Shown here one piece after another: positions 5,503 through 28,675 of a DNA stretch of 32,000 nt. This stretch comes from Rhodobacter capsulatus SB 1003 (lineage in GTDB: Bacteria; Pseudomonadota; Alphaproteobacteria; Rhodobacterales; Rhodobacteraceae). Positions within the stretch are counted from its first letter, which is position 1; every line of letters begins with the position of its first letter. The stretch lies in assembly GCF_000021865.1 (NCBI RefSeq), contig NC_014034.1, positions 1,590,001 through 1,622,000 of the forward strand. The letters are read 5' to 3'. A program made the position numbers and the translations under genes. The notes beneath the pieces were generated by a model. That model was given only the letters and a program-made list of their open reading frames with translations, was not told the DNA's origin and ran no database searches.

Positions 5503-6528
5503 TCAGTTCGGGGCAGGGCGGCTGGGCGCCTCGCCGGTCCAGCTGCGCCAGGCCCGCCAGAACACCGTGCCATCGGCATAGCCAAGCGCCTGCGCCACCG
5601 CCTCGACCGAAAGGCCGCGTTCGCGCAAGAGCACCTCGGCCCGGCGCTGCCGCTGCCGACGCAAAAGCCCGCTCAGGCTTTGCCCCTCCTCGGCCAGCCG
5701 CCGTTGCAGGCTGCGCGGCGCCATCCGCAACGCCGTCGCGATGGTCGGCAGATCGATCGGCCGCACGCCGAGATAGAGGTCGATCAGCGCCTCGACCTGC
5801 GTCGCAAGGCTTTCGGACCGGCCCGCATCGGCGGTCAGATCCTGCAGATGCCGCTCGATAAGCGCGATCATGTCCGGGTCCTCGGCACGATGCACCCGGT
5901 CGGCCCCGGCGGCGGAAAAGACGATGGCATTGACGGGCTGGGAATGGCGCACCGGCGCGCGAAACAGCGCCTCAAGCCGCGGCTTCTCGGCGATCGGCGG
6001 ATGGGTGAAGCGGATCTCCAGCGGCCGCCAGCGCGGATCAAAGGCGCCGCGGATCAGCCGACAGACGGCGGCCAGACTGAATTCCGTATCCTGCCGCGAG
6101 GCGATCAGCACCGGCGCCGTCAGCCGGTAGGTGAAGACCAGCTGGTCCTCCTCCTCGGTCAGGCTGGATTGGGTGGCGCTTTGCAGCGCCCCCGACCAGC
6201 GCGCAAAGGCGGTCAGCGCGCCGCGGATCGTGCCCGCCTGCACCGCGCGCAGCCCGATGGGCGCCAGATTGCCCGGCCGCATCCCGAAGCCCAAGCGTGC
6301 GCCAAAGAGCGGATCCCCTGCCAACTCCGCCGCAGCCTCGAAAATCGAGAGATAACTTTGCAAGGGAATCGCTTCGTAAGGGTCGGCCAGCACCTCGGGC
6401 GAGAGCTGTTCACGGGAAAGCAGAGTTTTCAACTTGCCCGGATCATCGGCAAAGTATTCCAGAATTGGCCCAAAAATCAGGGCCCTGACAGACAGCATTC
6501 CGGGCAGCGGGGTGCTGATCGTGGACAT
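5503..6528 (-). CDS. AraC-family transcriptional regulator (N-terminal ligand-binding domain plus C-terminal HTH)
   Basis: 341 aa. C-terminal HTH_18-like region (...IATALRMAPRSLQRRLAEEGQSLSGLLRRQRQRRAEVLLRERGLSVEAVAQALGYADGTVFWRAWRSWTGEAP). Divergent from the permease operon. ATG at 6526-6528 with a GAGGA-type RBS. Confidence 0.85.
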   Translation of the reverse strand: MSTISTPLPGMLSVRALIFGPILEYFADDPGKLKTLLSREQLSPEVLADPYEAIPLQSYLSIFEAAAELAGDPLFGARLGFGMRPGNLAPIGLRAVQAGTIRGALTAFARWSGALQSATQSSLTEEEDQLVFTYRLTAPVLIASRQDTEFSLAAVCRLIRGAFDPRWRPLEIRFTHPPIAEKPRLEALFRAPVRHSQPVNAIVFSAAGADRVHRAEDPDMIALIERHLQDLTADAGRSESLATQVEALIDLYLGVRPIDLPTIATALRMAPRSLQRRLAEEGQSLSGLLRRQRQRRAEVLLRERGLSVEAVAQALGYADGTVFWRAWRSWTGEAPSRPAPN

Positions 6529-6558
6529 TTTTCCTCATTTTCCCCCCTTGGGGGTGCA

Positions 6559-6586
6559 TTGGCGCAAACTATCGGATTTTTGGCGC
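6559..6586. promoter_or_regulatory. Candidate operator: direct repeat TTGGCGC at 6559-6565 and 6580-6586 (21-bp phasing) in the AraC/permease divergent spacer
   Basis: Read directly: cattggcgcaaactatcggatttttggcgcgtttt. Two helical turns between repeat starts is typical of AraC-family tandem half-sites. No experimental or comparative support. Confidence 0.25.
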
Positions 6587-6658
6587 GTTTTGCAATGGCC
6601 GCTCTTGTCCCGCCGCCTGCAGACCGGTTCCAAAGAAACCGAAACAGGGATCGGTAAA

Positions 6659-24063: not shown

Positions 24064-26622
24064 TCAGAACGGCACGTCGTCCAGCCCGACGGCGGGTTTC
24101 AGGAACCCGGCCTTGACATGTTTCGACCCGGCCTTGTCGAATTCGATCAAGGCGGTATCGCCTTCCAGATCGATCACCTCGCCATAGCCGAATTTGACGT
24201 GGAACACCCGGTCGCCCACGCCAAAGGCGAGGCTGTCCACCGTCGTCACCGTGCGCGCCTTGGGCCGCGGCGGCGTGCTGGCGCGGCTTTCCATCCGTTT
24301 CCAGCCCGGGGAATTGTAGACATCGGCCTTGGTCGCGCGGGCTTCCAGACTGCCAAAGCCGGTCTGCGTCGCCGCGCCGAAGCCGCCGCCGTAAAGCCCG
24401 GGCGGGGTCAGCACCTCGACCCGCGTGGCGGGCAATTCGTCGATGAAGCGCGAGGGCAGCTGCGACTGCCATTGCCCGTAAACCCGCCGGTTGCCCGCGA
24501 AGGAGATGGTGCAAATCTCCTCGGCCCGGGTGATGCCGACATAAGCCAGCCGCCGCTCTTCCTCGAGCGCGCGCAGCCCGCCCTCGTCCAGAGCGCGCTG
24601 GCTGGGAAACAGCCCGTCCTCCCAGCCGGGCAGGAAGACGGCCGGAAATTCCAGCCCCTTCGCCGCATGCAGGGTCATGATCGAGACCTTGTCCTCGGAC
24701 TGGTCCTTGTCGTTGTCCATGATCAGCGCGACATGTTCGAGGAAGCCCTGCAGATTCTCGAAGCTTTCCAGCGCCTTGACCAGTTCCTTCAGGTTTTCGA
24801 GCCGCCCCGGCGCCTCGGGCGTCTTGTCGGCCAGCCACATGTCGGTATAGCCCGATTCCTCCAGAATGGTTTCGGCCAGCCGCACATGGTCGGCATTCTC
24901 CAGCACCGCCGCATGCCAGCGCCCGATTCCGTCGAGGAAAGCGCGCAGGGCCCCTGCCGCCTTGCCGCCGATCGCGCCCTGTTGCAGCGCCGCTTTCGCG
25001 CCCATCACCAGACCCGCCTCGGCCTGACGGGCACAGGTCTGAATCACCGCCTGCGCCTTGTCGCCCAGACCCCGTTTGGGCAGGTTCACCACCCGCTCGA
25101 AGGCCAGATCATCGTCGGGCGACACGGCCAGGCGGAAATAGGCCATCGCATCGCGGATTTCCTGCCGTTCATAGAACCGCGGGCCGCCGATGACGCGATA
25201 GGGCAGGCCGATGGTCAGGAACCGGTCTTCAAAGGCGCGCATCTGATGGCTGGCGCGGACAAGGATAGTGATTTCACCAAGCATAAACGATTGAAAGAGA
25301 GCTTCCACATTGGAAGAGCGATCTTCCAATCCATATTGCTTGAGCAGCAATCCTCGCGTGTGAATGTCTCCGAAAATTCGACGATCTGACAACAAAGTGT
25401 CAGGCGGAATCTCTGGCAACATGGGAGGAAGCTGGTTTTTTACGCGCCGTTCGAATTCTTGCTCGTGAGTCTTTGACCGTGTGTTCCTTCTGTTTTTCGC
25501 TAACGGATGGGAACCATTATATAATTTCTCGATCTCTTCGCCGATCCAGCGCGCTTCCTCGTCGCCGTCCCAATGGCCGATCAGCCGAACCTTTTCGCCG
25601 CCCTTGTCGGCGGTCCAGAGCGTCTTGCCCAGCCGGTCGCGGTTGGCGGCGATCAGACCGGACGCGGCGGCCAGAATATGTTCGGTCGAGCGGTAGTTCT
25701 GTTCCAGCCGCACCACCACGGCGCCCGGAAAATCCTTTTCGAAGCGCAGGATATTGCCCACCTCGGCACCGCGCCAGCCATAGATCGACTGGTCGTCATC
25801 GCCGACGCAGCAGATGTTGCGATGCCCCTGTGCCAGAAGCCGCAGCCACAGATATTGCGCGGTGTTGGTGTCCTGATATTCGTCGACAAGGATATATCTG
25901 AACCAGCGCTGATACTGCTGCAGCACGTCGGGGTGACGCTGGAAGATCGTCACCATATGCAAGAGCAGATCGCCGAAATCGACGGCGTTCAGCGTGCGCA
26001 GCCGGTCCTGATAGGCGGCGTAAAGCTCGGAGCCGCGGTTGTCGAAATGCGCGGTGTCCGCGCCGCGGACATGTTCGGGCGTCCAGGCGCGGTTCTTCCA
26101 GCTGTCGATCAGCCCGGCCAATTGCCGCGCGGGCCAGCGCTTTTCATCCATGTTCGCGGCCAGGATCAGCTGTTTCAGCAACCGGATCTGGTCGTCTGTG
26201 TCCAGAATGGTGAAGTTCGACCGCAGCCCGACCAGTTCCGCGTGACGGCGCAGAAGCTTGACGCAGACCGAGTGAAAGGTGCCCAGCCACGGCATGCCTT
26301 CGAGCGTCTGGCCCATCAGACGGCCGATGCGGTCCTTCATTTCCCGCGCGGCCTTGTTGGTGAAAGTGACGGCCAGAACCTCGTTCGGGCGGGCGCGGCC
26401 GGAATGGATCAGATGCGCGATGCGCGCGGTCAGCGCCTTGGTCTTGCCGGTGCCCGCGCCCGCCAGCATCAGCACCGGGCCATCCAGCGCCTCCACCGCC
26501 CGCCGCTGCGCGTCGTTCAGACCGTCGAGCCAGGGCGTGCCCACCGGACCCCGCGCCGCCATCATGGCGCGTTGCGACAGGCTCAGCCCGCCGAAATCGT
26601 CATCATCAAGGATACTGCTCAT
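24064..26622 (-). CDS. uvrD: UvrD/Rep/PcrA-family (SF1A) DNA helicase II, carrying an atypical insertion
   Basis: 852 aa. Motif I AGAGTGKTK, Ia TFTNKAAREM, II VDEYQDTN, III VGDDDQSIYGWRGA, then LEQNYRS, V TLHAAKGLEFP and VI RLAYVGITRA. C-terminal Tudor-like GDRVFHVKFGYGEV. Residues ~366-452 are an unrecognised, low-GC-encoded segment (see findings). Confidence 0.92.
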   Translation of the reverse strand: MSSILDDDDFGGLSLSQRAMMAARGPVGTPWLDGLNDAQRRAVEALDGPVLMLAGAGTGKTKALTARIAHLIHSGRARPNEVLAVTFTNKAAREMKDRIGRLMGQTLEGMPWLGTFHSVCVKLLRRHAELVGLRSNFTILDTDDQIRLLKQLILAANMDEKRWPARQLAGLIDSWKNRAWTPEHVRGADTAHFDNRGSELYAAYQDRLRTLNAVDFGDLLLHMVTIFQRHPDVLQQYQRWFRYILVDEYQDTNTAQYLWLRLLAQGHRNICCVGDDDQSIYGWRGAEVGNILRFEKDFPGAVVVRLEQNYRSTEHILAAASGLIAANRDRLGKTLWTADKGGEKVRLIGHWDGDEEARWIGEEIEKLYNGSHPLAKNRRNTRSKTHEQEFERRVKNQLPPMLPEIPPDTLLSDRRIFGDIHTRGLLLKQYGLEDRSSNVEALFQSFMLGEITILVRASHQMRAFEDRFLTIGLPYRVIGGPRFYERQEIRDAMAYFRLAVSPDDDLAFERVVNLPKRGLGDKAQAVIQTCARQAEAGLVMGAKAALQQGAIGGKAAGALRAFLDGIGRWHAAVLENADHVRLAETILEESGYTDMWLADKTPEAPGRLENLKELVKALESFENLQGFLEHVALIMDNDKDQSEDKVSIMTLHAAKGLEFPAVFLPGWEDGLFPSQRALDEGGLRALEEERRLAYVGITRAEEICTISFAGNRRVYGQWQSQLPSRFIDELPATRVEVLTPPGLYGGGFGAATQTGFGSLEARATKADVYNSPGWKRMESRASTPPRPKARTVTTVDSLAFGVGDRVFHVKFGYGEVIDLEGDTALIEFDKAGSKHVKAGFLKPAVGLDDVPF

Positions 26623-26662
26623 GGGGCGCCACTATAGCTTGCGTTCCGGCAAAGCCAAGTCC

Positions 26663-26677
26663 GTTCGACTTTTGTTC
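26663..26677. promoter_or_regulatory. Candidate LexA (SOS) box, GTTC-N7-GTTC direct repeat
   Basis: Read directly: GTTCgacttttGTTC, lying 41-55 nt upstream of the uvrD start codon (on the uvrD strand it reads GAAC-N7-GAAC) and 76 nt upstream of the divergent ORF. It matches the alphaproteobacterial LexA consensus exactly. A single 8-nt specification can occur by chance. Confidence 0.45.
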
Positions 26678-26752
26678 GCTTTGGCCGTGTTGATTTTGTT
26701 CCGAAAGTCGTGCAACCATAGGTAGAGCACCGGGTATTCTGGAGGAGGCGAG

Positions 26753-27274
26753 ATGATGCTGACGAACTCCGCCGCGAAGTTTTCCTTTCTGCTCCGTCGG
26801 GCCGATGCGCTTGCGTGGGAGCATCTTCCGAACCGGATGAACGGGTTTCAGCGGTTTCTGTTGATGACCTGGTTGATCTCTGCGGCGTTCTGGCCGCTGG
26901 TGCTGCCTCTGGGCGGGCCTGCGTCATCGGGGGCGGCATTGCTGGAGGTGCTGGCGTTTTTTCTTTTGCATCTGGGACTTGCGGTTGTCGTGCTGGCGGT
27001 TTGGGCGCGGTTGCGGGCAAAGCGGCGCATCCCGGTGCCGGTCGAGGCGCAGCTGGAAGATCTTGGGGAAAGTCTGGTCTGGACGATGGGCAGGCGCCCC
27101 CCGCGCCTGCTTGCGCCCGAGGCGATCCGTCAGGTGCGTCTGGGGCCGGACCATGTCTTCGTGGAAGCGCCACCAGAGCTGATCATCATCCCGAGGCCCG
27201 TCTTCGGGACGGCGCAGGCTGCGGAAGCCTTTGTGATGCGATGGGAAAAGCGTCGCAGCATGTGTTTCCTGTAA
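26753..27274 (+). CDS. Hypothetical membrane protein, YcxB-like architecture (two N-terminal TM helices plus a soluble C-terminal domain)
   Basis: GGAGGAGG RBS 4-6 nt upstream of ATGATG. Two hydrophobic helices (FLLMTWLISAAFWPLVLPL and LEVLAFFLLHLGLAVVVLAVWA), then RLRAKRR. Codon usage has noticeably more T-ending and G/T-rich codons than the neighbours. The family call is tentative. Confidence 0.55.
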   Translation: MMLTNSAAKFSFLLRRADALAWEHLPNRMNGFQRFLLMTWLISAAFWPLVLPLGGPASSGAALLEVLAFFLLHLGLAVVVLAVWARLRAKRRIPVPVEAQLEDLGESLVWTMGRRPPRLLAPEAIRQVRLGPDHVFVEAPPELIIIPRPVFGTAQAAEAFVMRWEKRRSMCFL

Positions 27275-28466: not shown

Positions 28467-28675
28467 GGCGTCTCCCTTTCGCCTGTCGCGCAAGTTTCGA
28501 TATGGGAGTGAGACGCGGAAAGTCCAACCGAAGTTGCACAAGAAACGACGAAAGAGCCCCGGAAATCGTCGGACCGGCAATTTGTGCCGGGCAAGCACGG
28601 AAAAAAGAGGAAAGGCGTTCTGTTTCCCCGCTTCCGAGACCCCCGCAATTTCAGAGCCTTGCGCCGGGGCGGGGC

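What the first reader, a model, noticed from the sequence alone, without database searches (positions are those of the whole stretch)
25267..25527. Sharply bounded low-GC block of about 260 bp that stays in frame inside the uvrD-like helicase
**Seen in the sequence**
- By hand count, 25261-25530 is about 45% G+C (121/270). The uvrD sequence on both sides, and the window as a whole, are roughly 65-68%.
- The transition on each side occurs within a few bases.
- Despite the AT-richness, the block has no stop codon in the uvrD frame.
- It encodes residues ~366-452: KLYNGSHPLAKNRRNTRSKTHEQEFERRVKNQLPPMLPEIPPDTLLSDRRIFGDIHTRGLLLKQYGLEDRSSNVEALFQSFMLGEIT.
- It uses codons that are otherwise rare here (TTA, AAA, AAT, TAT, ATA).

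**From family knowledge**
- The block lies between the conserved ...EEARWIGEEIE helix and the ILVRASHQMR strand in helicase domain 2A.
- In the UvrD/PcrA proteins I remember, these two elements are joined by only about 15-25 residues.

**Inference**
- About 60-70 extra residues of foreign-looking origin appear to have been grafted into a surface loop of an essential repair helicase and kept translatable.
- I do not recognise the inserted peptide as any known domain.
- It could be a lineage-specific interaction or regulatory module, a remnant of an in-frame insertion event, or a recombination patch from a low-GC donor.
Basis: partly seen in the sequence, partly recalled or inferred. Interest (0 to 1): 0.7.

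Follow-up and report, generated by a model that had tools for sequence, protein, structure and literature searches.

The report
AT-rich in-frame accessory cassette in UvrD
The low-GC block is real: it is a strain-specific, translated ~69-codon cassette swapped into a surface loop of the UvrD repair helicase, one of an old family found in about 1% of sampled Rhodobacterales, and it stays AT-rich in every host for reasons not yet known.

Summary
**Observation: confirmed.**
- Window 25267-25527 is 44.8% G+C; the rest of the uvrD-type gene (24064-26622, minus strand) is 65.1%.
- GC3 is 0.45 versus 0.83. This is the lowest 261-nt window in the 32 kb.
- The block is in frame and open; only 0.6% of shuffles are.

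**What it is.**
- It is the "long-loop" allele of *Rhodobacter capsulatus* uvrD.
- A 279-nt patch (25258-25536) replaces the 72-nt loop of other *R. capsulatus* strains. Flanks differ at about 1.6% of sites.
- The peptide is not an orphan. Homologous 77-100-aa cassettes occupy the same 2A loop in about 1% of sampled Rhodobacterales UvrD genes.
- Presence and type disagree with the gene's own tree (at least 15 state changes). A second long/short pair with near-identical flanks was found.
- The peptide is under purifying selection (pN 0.08-0.42 against saturated pS).
- It is predicted as a small helical module with no Pfam or PDB match.

**The surprise.**
- All 19 cassettes have GC3 of 0.42-0.59 whatever the host gene's GC3 (0.59-0.90).
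- Four-fold sites use the four bases almost evenly.
- A second cassette family, in domain 1B, behaves the same way. Unrelated insertions in this gene do not.

**Conclusion.**
- A low-GC donor is not needed to explain the block.
- Intein, intron and MITE readings are rejected.
- Biochemical function is unknown; I favour a surface interaction or regulatory module.

The parts
24064..26622 (-). uvrD/pcrA-type SF1A helicase gene (852 aa), the host of the cassette
   Evidence: It is an open ORF. Pfam gives UvrD-helicase at 1.8e-91 and UvrD_C at 8.7e-60. PDB sequence search gives E. coli UvrD at 2.7e-164. NCBIfam PcrA/UvrD equivalog models are split at about residue 371-375. The AlphaFold model matches UvrD/PcrA structures. 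The protein is 100% identical to P0001 of R. capsulatus. Synteny with the GCHY-1 and RNase D genes is the same as in short-allele strains.
25258..25536 (-). Replaced patch, the 'long-loop' allele: 279 nt in place of the 72 nt of the short R. capsulatus allele (net +207 nt, 69 codons)
   Evidence: Nucleotide alignment with short-allele strain L001: divergence starts at ...GGCGAAGA|GATCGAGAAA and ends at ...ATCCTTGT|C. The rest of the gene differs at 36 sites in about 2.3 kb. Change points at 25259/25538.
25267..25527 (-).
   Evidence: GC 44.8%, GC3 0.448. Open frame in 0.58% of shuffles; 21 of 87 codons are rare.
25435..25515 (-). Conserved basic N-terminal half of the cassette (aa 370-396, GSHPLAKNRRNTRSKTHEQEFERRVKN). 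Family motif: G-x7-R-x-N-x-R-S...Q-E-x-E-R-R-x-K
   Evidence: Invariant G, R, N, R and E columns across 16 cassettes. Net charge is positive in 18 of 19 cassettes (0 to +6; +5 in the window). Predicted helix 386-395.
25282..25434 (-). Variable, helical C-terminal half of the cassette (aa 397-447). It defines the cassette types A-E; the window is type A
   Evidence: Alignments. Predicted helices 407-418, 420-429 and 434-443, pLDDT 63-73. The local hairpin 25270-25350 (z = -3.7) is not conserved in other type-A cassettes.
25231..25257 (-). Possible co-converted 3' flank. The patch's last codons differ synonymously from the short allele at 25264, 25261 and 25258; one further difference lies in this flank at 25231. 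The next difference on the other side is at 25588
   Evidence: Assigning the 25231 site to the imported tract is uncertain, because background SNP density is about 1.6%.

Best explanation
**What it is**
- The block is an in-frame accessory cassette inside a core gene.
- In the lineage of this R. capsulatus strain, the ordinary 23-residue loop between the EEARWIGEEIE helix and the ILVRASHQMR strand of UvrD domain 2A was replaced.
- The replacement was a short-patch homologous recombination of at most about 360 nt, with crossovers in the extremely conserved flanking codons.
- The new loop has 92 residues.

**The family it belongs to**
- The incoming segment belongs to an old, diverse family of UvrD loop cassettes: 77-100 aa, at least five types.
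- The family persists in about 1% of sampled Rhodobacterales.
- It is a presence/absence and type polymorphism that is gained, lost or exchanged independently of the rest of the gene.

**The product**
- The cassette is translated as part of one continuous UvrD.
- It is kept under purifying selection as a peptide.
- It most likely folds into a small helical sub-domain with a conserved basic helix.
- By inference from RecA-fold topology, it projects from the face of 2A away from the ATP and ssDNA sites.

**The composition**
- Its low G+C is an intrinsic, equilibrium property of the cassette family in every host, not a mark of a low-GC donor.
- I favour this account: a chronically rare, often partner-less allele escapes the weak GC-raising force (biased gene conversion and/or codon selection) acting on the rest of the genome. 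It therefore sits near mutational equilibrium.
- Selection for AT-rich or rare codons is the main alternative.

**The function (speculative)**
- A surface docking or regulatory module that changes which partner (protein or nucleic acid) UvrD engages.

**Status of each step**
- Shown: allele replacement, the family, patchiness, protein-level constraint, universal AT shift.
- Inferred: recombination route, fold, surface location, cause of AT-richness, function.
For: **Allelic replacement**
- Other R. capsulatus alleles are 783 aa and 94-100% identical over the aligned part; they and sister species have the short loop.
- The patch edges are sharp at nucleotide level and the flanks are nearly identical.
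- The chromosomal locus is the same.

**A family, not an orphan**
- Homologous long loops occur in 20 of the top 120 protein hits.
- They share invariant G/R/N/R/E columns.
- 6 of 599 species genomes and 6 of 521 metagenome loci carry one.
- All 19 DNA copies are in frame.

**Mobility**
- The nearest backbone relatives of long forms are short forms. L087/L163 have 100% identical backbone residues and 99.9%/99.2% identical flank nucleotides. L085/L151 are 95% and L007/L053 94% identical in backbone.
- Two Ruegeria with 94%-identical backbones carry different cassette types.
- Fitch parsimony on an NJ tree gives at least 15 changes among 141 taxa, with a short-form root.

**Protein-level selection**
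- Between cassettes pS is 0.68-0.98 (saturated) and pN is 0.08-0.42.
- The two 86%-identical type-B pairs have pN/pS of about 0.1, against 0.15-0.16 in their flanks.
- The frame is open in 0.6% of shuffles.

**Fold**
- Helical, pLDDT 63-73 in the full-length model and 67 for the cassette alone.

**Composition**
- Cassette GC3 is 0.42-0.59; host GC3 is 0.59-0.90.
- Cassette-versus-host correlation is r = -0.21. For 135 short loops it is r = +0.82 with a GC3 difference of about 0.
- Four-fold sites: A .25, C .23, G .22, T .30 in cassettes; A .05, C .40, G .45, T .10 in flanks.
- The four type-B hosts L169-L172 are each other's closest relatives, yet their cassettes remain at GC3 0.50-0.59 with saturated pS.
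- The independent 1B cassette is also AT-shifted in two hosts.
- Unrelated insertions in the same gene are host-like.
- General background: accessory DNA tends to be AT-richer than core DNA, and gBGC is debated in bacteria (PMC6429543).
Against: - No donor was found. The nearest cassette is only 53% identical in protein and about 73% over 70 nt, so the recombination event is inferred from end points only.
The '1%' and the apparent absence of low-GC hosts are therefore sample estimates.
- Flank synonymous sites are also near saturation. Co-divergence of cassette and host in the type-B clade cannot be dated.
- The cassette (44.8% GC) is more AT-rich than any other 261-nt stretch of the window, intergenic DNA included. 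Simple 'relaxed selection' does not predict this unless the GC-raising force also acts on intergenic DNA.
- The structure models are of only moderate confidence, built from 16-34 sequences.
- No experiment or homology supports any particular function.
- The surface location was reasoned from fold topology, not measured on coordinates.
Confidence: 0.72

Rival explanations
1. Recent import from an unsampled low-GC reservoir, such as a streamlined low-GC roseobacter, a phage, a GTA or a plasmid. Each high-GC host acquired its cassette recently and it has not yet ameliorated.
For: - The R. capsulatus and L087 alleles are clearly recent within their populations.
- The cassette is more AT-rich than any intergenic DNA in the window.
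- GC1 and GC2 are also lowered.
- Cassette GC3 is independent of host GC3.
Against: - All 19 cassettes sit in hosts with GC3 of at least 0.59; none is in a compositionally matching host.
- No two cassettes are close in DNA. pS is saturated even at 86% protein identity, so no shared recent source is visible.
- The related hosts L169-L172 share type B, which fits long residence.
- There is no hit in phage, plasmid or viral-contig collections.
- The insert-only profile finds nothing outside UvrD among 1.84 billion representatives.
Confidence: 0.15
2. The AT-richness is itself the selected trait. The segment would act at nucleic-acid level, for example as a rare-codon translational pause before domain 2B, as dependence on rare tRNAs (TTA-type regulation), or as an AT-rich site for a nucleoid-associated or silencing protein. 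The peptide would be secondary.
For: - GC3 is held at about 0.47 across deeply diverged cassettes, and in a second cassette family.
- 21 of the 87 codons are rare, including two TTA.
- The 20 codons upstream are also AT-shifted, 0.655 against a host mean of 0.78.
Against: - The peptide is under clear purifying selection (pN/pS about 0.1-0.5).
- There is no conserved nucleotide motif beyond what the amino acids explain (blastn).
- No promoter-like site was found.
- Whole-cassette RNA folding is unremarkable (mean z = -0.84).
- The one local hairpin is not conserved.
- Four-fold sites look unbiased rather than enriched for particular rare codons.
Confidence: 0.2
3. A self-splicing or selfish insertion: a mini-intein, a group I/II intron, or a MITE/RPE-like palindromic element that landed in frame.
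For: - It has a patchy, site-specific distribution in a conserved DNA-metabolism gene, and it is AT-rich relative to the host. Both are typical of inteins and homing introns.
- In-frame MITE insertions are known in Rickettsia (PMC10969869).
- An imperfect 26-nt inverted repeat lies inside the block.
Against: - There is no Cys/Ser/Thr at the N-terminal junction and no His-Asn plus nucleophile at the C-terminal junction.
- At 77-100 aa it is below mini-intein size, and there is no Hint or endonuclease hit.
- No Rfam intron or RNA family matches even at E <= 10.
- All 19 copies are in frame and under amino-acid-level selection.
- There are no terminal inverted repeats or target duplications at the edges.
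- No other copies exist anywhere.
- The internal hairpin is not conserved.
Confidence: 0.03
4. The long loop is ancestral and vertically inherited. Short forms would arise by repeated precise deletion, so this strain simply retained it.
For: - Short loops resemble the two ends of long loops (G-[ST]-R-G ... F-S-L-D-E-x-A), so an interior deletion could convert long to short.
- L169-L172 look like vertical inheritance.
Against: - Short loops are homologous to each other across genera and have host-like composition.
- All other R. capsulatus strains and four sister species share the same short loop sequence. In the window allele the loop ends are replaced too, not just an interior piece.
- The parsimony root is short, with at least 15 changes.
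- Closely related Ruegeria carry different cassette types.
Confidence: 0.05

Closest known systems
Mosaic alleles made by short-patch interspecies homologous recombination (e.g. pneumococcal/neisserial penicillin-binding-protein genes; from my own knowledge)
   Same: - A sharply bounded, highly divergent block sits inside an otherwise near-identical conspecific allele, with crossovers in conserved flanks.
- The same gene shows other patches in other strains. P0015 has an N-terminal patch with 29% nt divergence; P0011 has a 1B patch.
   Different: - The block is not a diverged orthologous segment. It is an indel cassette of +69 codons.
- It has its own deep phylogeny and an unbiased synonymous composition in every host.
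Inteins and homing introns in DNA-metabolism genes
   Same: - A single, precise site in a highly conserved region of a replication/repair gene.
- Sporadic distribution that disagrees with the host phylogeny.
- Presence/absence polymorphism within populations.
- AT-shifted composition.
   Different: - No splicing motifs, no endonuclease and no RNA family match.
- It remains in the mature reading frame and is selected as a peptide.
Rickettsia palindromic elements and other in-frame MITE insertions (PMC10969869)
   Same: A short foreign segment, inserted in frame in a housekeeping protein and tolerated in the fold.
   Different: - RPEs are multi-copy palindromic repeats inserted in many unrelated genes.
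- This cassette occurs at one site of one gene, has no terminal repeats, is not unusually structured, and shows amino-acid-level rather than nucleotide-level conservation.
Conserved signature indels (CSIs) in UvrD and other repair proteins (e.g. Deinococcus, PMC5867870, listed)
   Same: A lineage-restricted insertion in a surface loop of a conserved repair protein.
   Different: - As I understand the term, CSIs are clade-defining and vertically inherited.
- This one is patchy and polymorphic within species and genera, with at least 15 state changes on the backbone tree.
AT-richness of accessory/horizontally acquired DNA relative to core genomes (PMC6429543)
   Same: A dispensable, strain-variable segment is AT-richer than the core sequence around it.
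   Different: - Here the effect is confined to about 0.25 kb inside a single core ORF.
- It is extreme (GC3 difference of about -0.3).
- It persists at synonymous saturation while the peptide is conserved.

Membership tests
UvrD/PcrA/Rep (SF1A) DNA helicase | N-terminal UvrD-helicase and C-terminal UvrD_C domains with full-length similarity to solved UvrD/PcrA | tested here: met
   Pfam PF00580 at 1.8e-91 and PF13361 at 8.7e-60. UvrD 2is1 at 2.7e-164 over residues 32-368 and 448-736. Foldseek matches to 2is6, 3lfu and 1pjr at E <= 1e-39.
UvrD/PcrA/Rep (SF1A) DNA helicase | Meets NCBIfam equivalog cut-off for UvrD or PcrA | tested here: not met
   The best score is 762 bits for the PcrA model against a cut-off of 911. 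Matches are split at about residue 371-375 by the cassette. The family assignment is secure, but the specific equivalog name is not.
Intein | Cys/Ser/Thr as first residue, His-Asn at the end followed by Cys/Ser/Thr, Hint-fold blocks, at least ~130 aa | tested here: not met
   The junctions are ...EEIE|KLYNGSH... and ...LGEIT|ILVRAS. Length is 69-92 aa. There is no Pfam hit even at E <= 10 for 16 cassettes. The predicted fold is all-helical.
Group I / group II intron or other known RNA element | Match to a covariance model; usually interrupts the frame | tested here: not met
   Rfam at E <= 10 over 24900-25900 gives only sub-threshold snoRNA/sRNA noise outside the block. All 19 copies are in frame and stop-free.
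MITE / Rickettsia-palindromic-element-like insertion | Terminal inverted repeats, target-site duplication, multiple genomic copies, strong palindromic fold | tested here: not met
   There are no TIR or TSD at the patch edges. No other copy exists in plasmid, phage or viral collections or in other proteins. Cassette folding gives z = -0.84 +/- 0.6. Whole-genome copy number in this strain was not testable.
Conserved signature indel (clade marker) | Present in all members of one clade and absent outside it | tested here: not met
   It is polymorphic within R. capsulatus and within the L087/L163 population. It is patchy within Ruegeria, Cypionkella and Tabrizicola. There are at least 15 state changes.
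Recombination-mosaic allele | Sharply bounded divergent tract in an otherwise near-identical conspecific allele at the same locus | tested here: met
   279 nt against 72 nt, with flanks differing at 36 of about 2280 sites and the same neighbouring genes. Replicated in L087/L163.
Anti-phage defence helicase (Gabija GajB, DRT-associated helicase) | UvrD-like helicase encoded next to its system partner (e.g. GajA) | tested here: not met
   The PADLOC hits are generic UvrD similarity and the cassette itself has none. The neighbours are the GCHY-1, a 173-aa ORF and RNase D genes, conserved across strains.

The most novel reading that the evidence does not exclude
**The reading**
- Rhodobacterales uvrD harbours at least two families of ancient in-frame 'accessory cassettes', one in the 2A loop and one in the 1B loop. 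They behave like independent genetic entities living inside a core gene.
- They would be kept permanently rare and diverse by balancing or negative-frequency-dependent selection. One example would be an arms race with rolling-circle plasmids, phages or other elements that dock on or inhibit UvrD.
- They would be shuttled between lineages by homologous recombination, possibly through GTAs.

**Consequence for composition**
- Because they are rare and usually lack a homologous partner, their synonymous sites escape the GC-raising force.
- They would then display the hosts' unbiased mutational equilibrium.

**Why that would be useful**
- The cassettes would be a natural, within-gene control for separating biased gene conversion from codon selection as the cause of high GC in bacteria.
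Probability: 0.22. Interest if true: 0.8.

Novelty: new variant of a known kind. Interest (0 to 1): 0.62.

Why it matters
**For UvrD biology**
- A widely used laboratory lineage of R. capsulatus carries a UvrD with an extra, selected, roughly 70-residue helical module that most conspecifics lack.
- This could alter repair, anti-recombination, or interactions with mobile elements.
- It is easy to test by allele swap.

**For genome evolution**
- A 0.25-kb segment inside one ORF keeps an almost unbiased synonymous composition (GC3 about 0.47) in hosts whose same gene has GC3 up to 0.90.
- It does so while its amino acids are conserved and its synonymous sites are saturated.
- A second cassette in the same gene does the same, and unrelated insertions do not.
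- This is an unusually clean natural contrast for asking what drives high GC3 in bacteria: recombination-linked conversion, codon selection, or effective population size of alleles.
- It also cautions against reading every low-GC island as a mark of a low-GC donor.

Tried and rejected
**Searches that found nothing or misled**
- Insert-only word-index protein search found nothing. This was a false negative of the index for a short query, because the identical full protein P0001 is in the database.
- blastn and tblastn of the block against plasmids and phages, and a viral-contig scan, found nothing.
- Pfam on the block and on 16 cassettes at E <= 10 gave only scattered single-member noise. PADLOC gave none.
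- The PDB profile search gave one hit at E = 0.8. Foldseek of the cassette model gave a best E of 3.8.
- The insert-only HMM against 1.84 billion representatives gave two eukaryote-like repeat proteins (spurious) and one UvrD fragment. Long and short UvrDs probably share 50% clusters, so this mainly excludes other protein contexts.

**Scans that failed technically**
- Genome scan with the four-sequence alignment A3: patterns matched, but tblastn confirmation failed. This was solved by adding flanks (alignment A4).

**Nucleic-acid-level readings rejected**
- Intron or RNA element: rejected by Rfam.
- Promoter inside the block: none found. One weak terminator-like hairpin matches the number expected by chance.
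- Palindromic-element idea: the 25270-25350 hairpin scores z = -3.7, but it was chosen post hoc and is not conserved. Whole cassettes are not unusually structured.

**Analyses that could not be completed**
- dN/dS proper could not be computed because pS is saturated. pN versus pS was used instead.
- Dating cassette against flank divergence failed for the same reason.


Full report
**1.

The minus-strand ORF 24064-26622 encodes an 852-aa UvrD/PcrA-type helicase.

Composition:
- The reported block 25267-25527 is exactly codons 366-452.
- It has 44.8% G+C; the rest of the gene has 65.1% and the window 67.2%.
- GC3 is 0.448 against 0.830.
- It is the lowest of all 261-nt windows in the 32 kb. The next independent minimum is 52.9%.
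- Likelihood change points fall at 25259 and 25538.

Reading frame:
- Only 0.58% of shuffles of the block stay open in this frame.
- The other five frames have 2-4 stops each.
- 21 of the 87 codons are rare in neighbouring genes.

Extra length:
- The alignment to E. coli UvrD stops at residue 368 and resumes at 448, which is UvrD 341 to 347.

**2. It is a strain-specific allele made by a short replacement**

The identical protein exists in public data:
- It is P0001 of *Rhodobacter capsulatus*, present in several assemblies and in more than 100 index blocks of the assembly collection, always at the same locus.
- The other *R. capsulatus* alleles listed are 783 aa, apart from one 816-aa allele (P0011).
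- Like *R. viridis*, *R. maris*, *R. lacus* and Rhodobacter sp. JA431, they have a 23-residue loop, GEE[VI]ESLSRGTRGLDPIPLNGQA or a close variant, where the window has 92 residues.

Nucleotide alignment with a short-allele strain (L001):
- A 279-nt patch (25258-25536) replaces 72 nt.
- The remaining ~2.3 kb differs at 36 sites.
- The neighbouring genes are the same.
- The nearest flanking differences, at 25231 and 25588, bound the imported tract at about 360 nt.

**3. The peptide is not an orphan**

- A homologous 77-100-residue loop occupies exactly this position in 20 of the 120 best protein hits. These include *Ruegeria arenilitoris*, *Neogemmobacter tilapiae*, and Cereibacter and Albidovulum MAGs.
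- The alignment shows invariant G, R, N, R and E columns. The family motif is G-x7-R-x-N-x-R-S...Q-E-x-E-R-R-x-K, followed by a variable half that defines at least five types. The window is type A.
- Scans with flank-anchored patterns found long loops in 6 of 599 species genomes and in 6 of 521 metagenome loci. All other loops are 22-24 residues.
- An insert-only profile found the module in no other protein context among 1.84 billion representatives.
- It has no Pfam, PADLOC, PDB-sequence or Foldseek match.
- It has no relative in phage, plasmid or viral-contig collections.

**4. Presence and type disagree with the gene's own history**

Using 450 backbone residues with the loop excluded, the closest relatives of nearly every long form are short forms.

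| Long form | Nearest short form | Backbone identity |
|---|---|---|
| window | L001 | 99% |
| L087 | L163 | 100% |
| L085 | L151 | 95% |
| L007 (*Cypionkella sinensis*) | L053 | 94% |

- Two Ruegeria with 94%-identical backbones carry different cassette types. *R. atlantica*, at 93%, is short.
- L087/L163 is a second within-population case. The flanks are 99.9% and 99.2% identical in nucleotides over about 2 kb, with razor-sharp edges at ...GAGATCGAGGCG | cassette | CTGGATGA....
- Fitch parsimony on an NJ backbone tree needs at least 15 state changes for 19 long forms among 141 taxa, with a short-form root.
- The four type-B hosts L169-L172 are each other's closest relatives. The cassette is therefore also inherited vertically for long periods.

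**5. It is translated and selected as a peptide**

- All 19 DNA copies are in frame and stop-free.
- Between cassettes of the same type, synonymous differences are saturated (pS 0.68-0.98) while pN is 0.08-0.42.
- The two pairs that are 86% identical in protein have pN/pS of about 0.1. The helicase core around them has 0.15-0.16.
- AlphaFold predicts helices at 373-376, 386-395, 407-418, 420-429 and 434-443. pLDDT is 63-73 in the full-length model and 67 for the cassette alone. This is moderate confidence from shallow alignments.
- The conserved N-terminal half has positive net charge in 18 of 19 cassettes (0 to +6; +5 in the window). The variable half is mostly neutral or acidic.
- The loop precedes the strand that leads to the ILVRASHQMR segment. 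RecA-fold topology therefore places it on the face of 2A away from the ATP and ssDNA sites. This is an inference; I could not measure it on coordinates.

**6. The unexpected part: composition**

The data point elsewhere.

| Measure | Cassettes | Comparison |
|---|---|---|
| GC3 | 0.42-0.59 (19 copies) | host gene 0.59-0.90 |
| Correlation of loop GC3 with host GC3 | r = -0.21 | 135 short loops: r = +0.82, GC3 difference about 0 |
| Four-fold sites | A .25, C .23, G .22, T .30 | flanks: A .05, C .40, G .45, T .10 |

- Because synonymous sites are saturated, this composition is an equilibrium, not a transient state.
- The vertically related type-B cassettes still sit at GC3 0.50-0.59, in genes at 0.80-0.86.
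- An independent cassette in domain 1B (+33 aa) behaves the same way. It occurs in another *R. capsulatus* strain (P0011/L165) and, homologously, in a Silicimonas MAG (L079). GC3 is 0.43-0.50 against 0.73-0.82.
- Control insertions in the same gene are host-like. The Rhodomicrobiaceae loop in L021 has 0.81 against 0.76. The 2B insertion in L004 has 0.61 against 0.67.
- An ordinary no-indel recombination patch in a third strain (P0015) is only mildly shifted, 0.72 against 0.88.

**7. Explanations for the AT-richness**

(a) Escape from the GC-raising force.
- A chronically rare allele that usually lacks a homologous partner would escape the weak force that raises GC elsewhere, whether biased gene conversion or weak codon selection. 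It would then rest at mutational equilibrium.
- This fits the general AT-richness of accessory DNA (PMC6429543).
- It also fits the flat base usage at four-fold sites.

(b) Selection for AT-rich or rare codons, or for an AT-rich DNA site.
- No conserved nucleotide motif, promoter or RNA structure supports this.
- It is not excluded.

(c) An unsampled low-GC reservoir.
- No compositionally matching host was seen.
- No closely related cassette pair was seen.
- No phage or plasmid copy was seen.
- However, the scans were limited.

I rank (a) above (b) above (c), none with high confidence.

**8. Rejected readings**

- Intein: wrong junction residues, too small, predicted all-helical.
- Intron or other RNA element: Rfam is negative, and every copy is in frame and under amino-acid selection.
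- MITE or Rickettsia-palindromic-element type: no terminal repeats, no target duplication and no other copies. The one hairpin (z = -3.7, chosen post hoc) is not conserved.
- Conserved signature indel: not clade-specific.
- Defence-system helicase: housekeeping synteny, and the PADLOC similarity is generic.

**9. Verdict**

It is a foreign in-frame graft in a 2A surface loop, brought in by recombination.
- The block is a member of a recurrent, selected cassette family whose AT-richness is intrinsic.
- Mechanistically it is a new variant of mosaic-gene and indel polymorphism. Its distribution resembles that of an intein, but without any splicing machinery.
- Its biochemical role is unknown. My working hypothesis is a surface docking or regulatory module. 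Allele swaps and pull-downs are the direct tests.

Noticed in passing
L165 1501-3951 (P0011, R. capsulatus GCA_000506425.2), cds 450-696; L079 1937-2086: Another R. capsulatus strain has an independent in-frame replaced patch with a +33-aa insertion in UvrD domain 1B. Its GC3 is 0.43-0.48 against 0.81-0.82. A homologous 1B insertion (46% identity, E = 6e-10) occurs in a Silicimonas MAG, also AT-shifted (0.50 against 0.73). This is a second cassette family in the same gene.
   Followed up: partly
L173 301-2652 (P0015, R. capsulatus GCA_052363175.1), cds 49-399: A third R. capsulatus allele has a no-indel N-terminal patch with 29% nt divergence, against 8.6% in the rest of the gene. Its GC3 is 0.72 against 0.88. 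This is an ordinary interspecies recombination patch, so uvrD is a mosaic gene in this species.
   Followed up: partly
L021 2501-2803 (Rhodomicrobiaceae MAG): An unrelated 39-residue loop occupies the same 2A position, with host-like GC3 (0.81 against 0.76). The site tolerates insertions in other alphaproteobacteria.
   Followed up: partly
loci L003-L010, L085-L090, L169-L172: the 20 codons 5' of the cassette: In long alleles the 20 codons upstream of the loop have mean GC3 of 0.655 against a host mean of 0.78. In short alleles the figures are 0.767 and 0.747. Downstream there is no shift (0.82). This may be a co-transferred flank or a local gradient. It was not tested for significance.
   Followed up: no
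window 25270-25350 (-): A local RNA hairpin has MFE -27.1 kcal/mol and z = -3.7 (0 of 200 shuffles). It overlaps the weak terminator-like site at 25302-25316. It is not conserved in other type-A cassettes, so it is probably chance.
   Followed up: yes
window ~28590-28670 vs L001: Upstream of, or at the 5' end of, the GCHY-1-family gene the window lacks about 130 nt that strain L001 has. The surrounding ~80 nt are highly divergent. This is a second strain-variable spot about 3 kb from uvrD.
   Followed up: no
window 26631-26891 and 6337-6597: These are the next-lowest G+C stretches of the window, at 54.4% and 52.9%. The first covers the uvrD upstream intergenic region. Both are far less extreme than the cassette.
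   Followed up: no
L004 (Ruegeria arenilitoris) uvrD; P0031 (Paenirhodobacter populi): Further lineage-specific insertions exist elsewhere in UvrD. One is a 23-aa insertion in 2B in L004, with host-like GC3. The other is an 18-aa insertion after HAEL in P0031. The helicase surface is indel-rich in this order.
   Followed up: partly
tool behaviour, vs 13: The word-index protein search returned 'no homologue' for the 87-aa block even though the database holds the identical full-length protein. Negative results of that tool for short queries are unreliable.
   Followed up: yes
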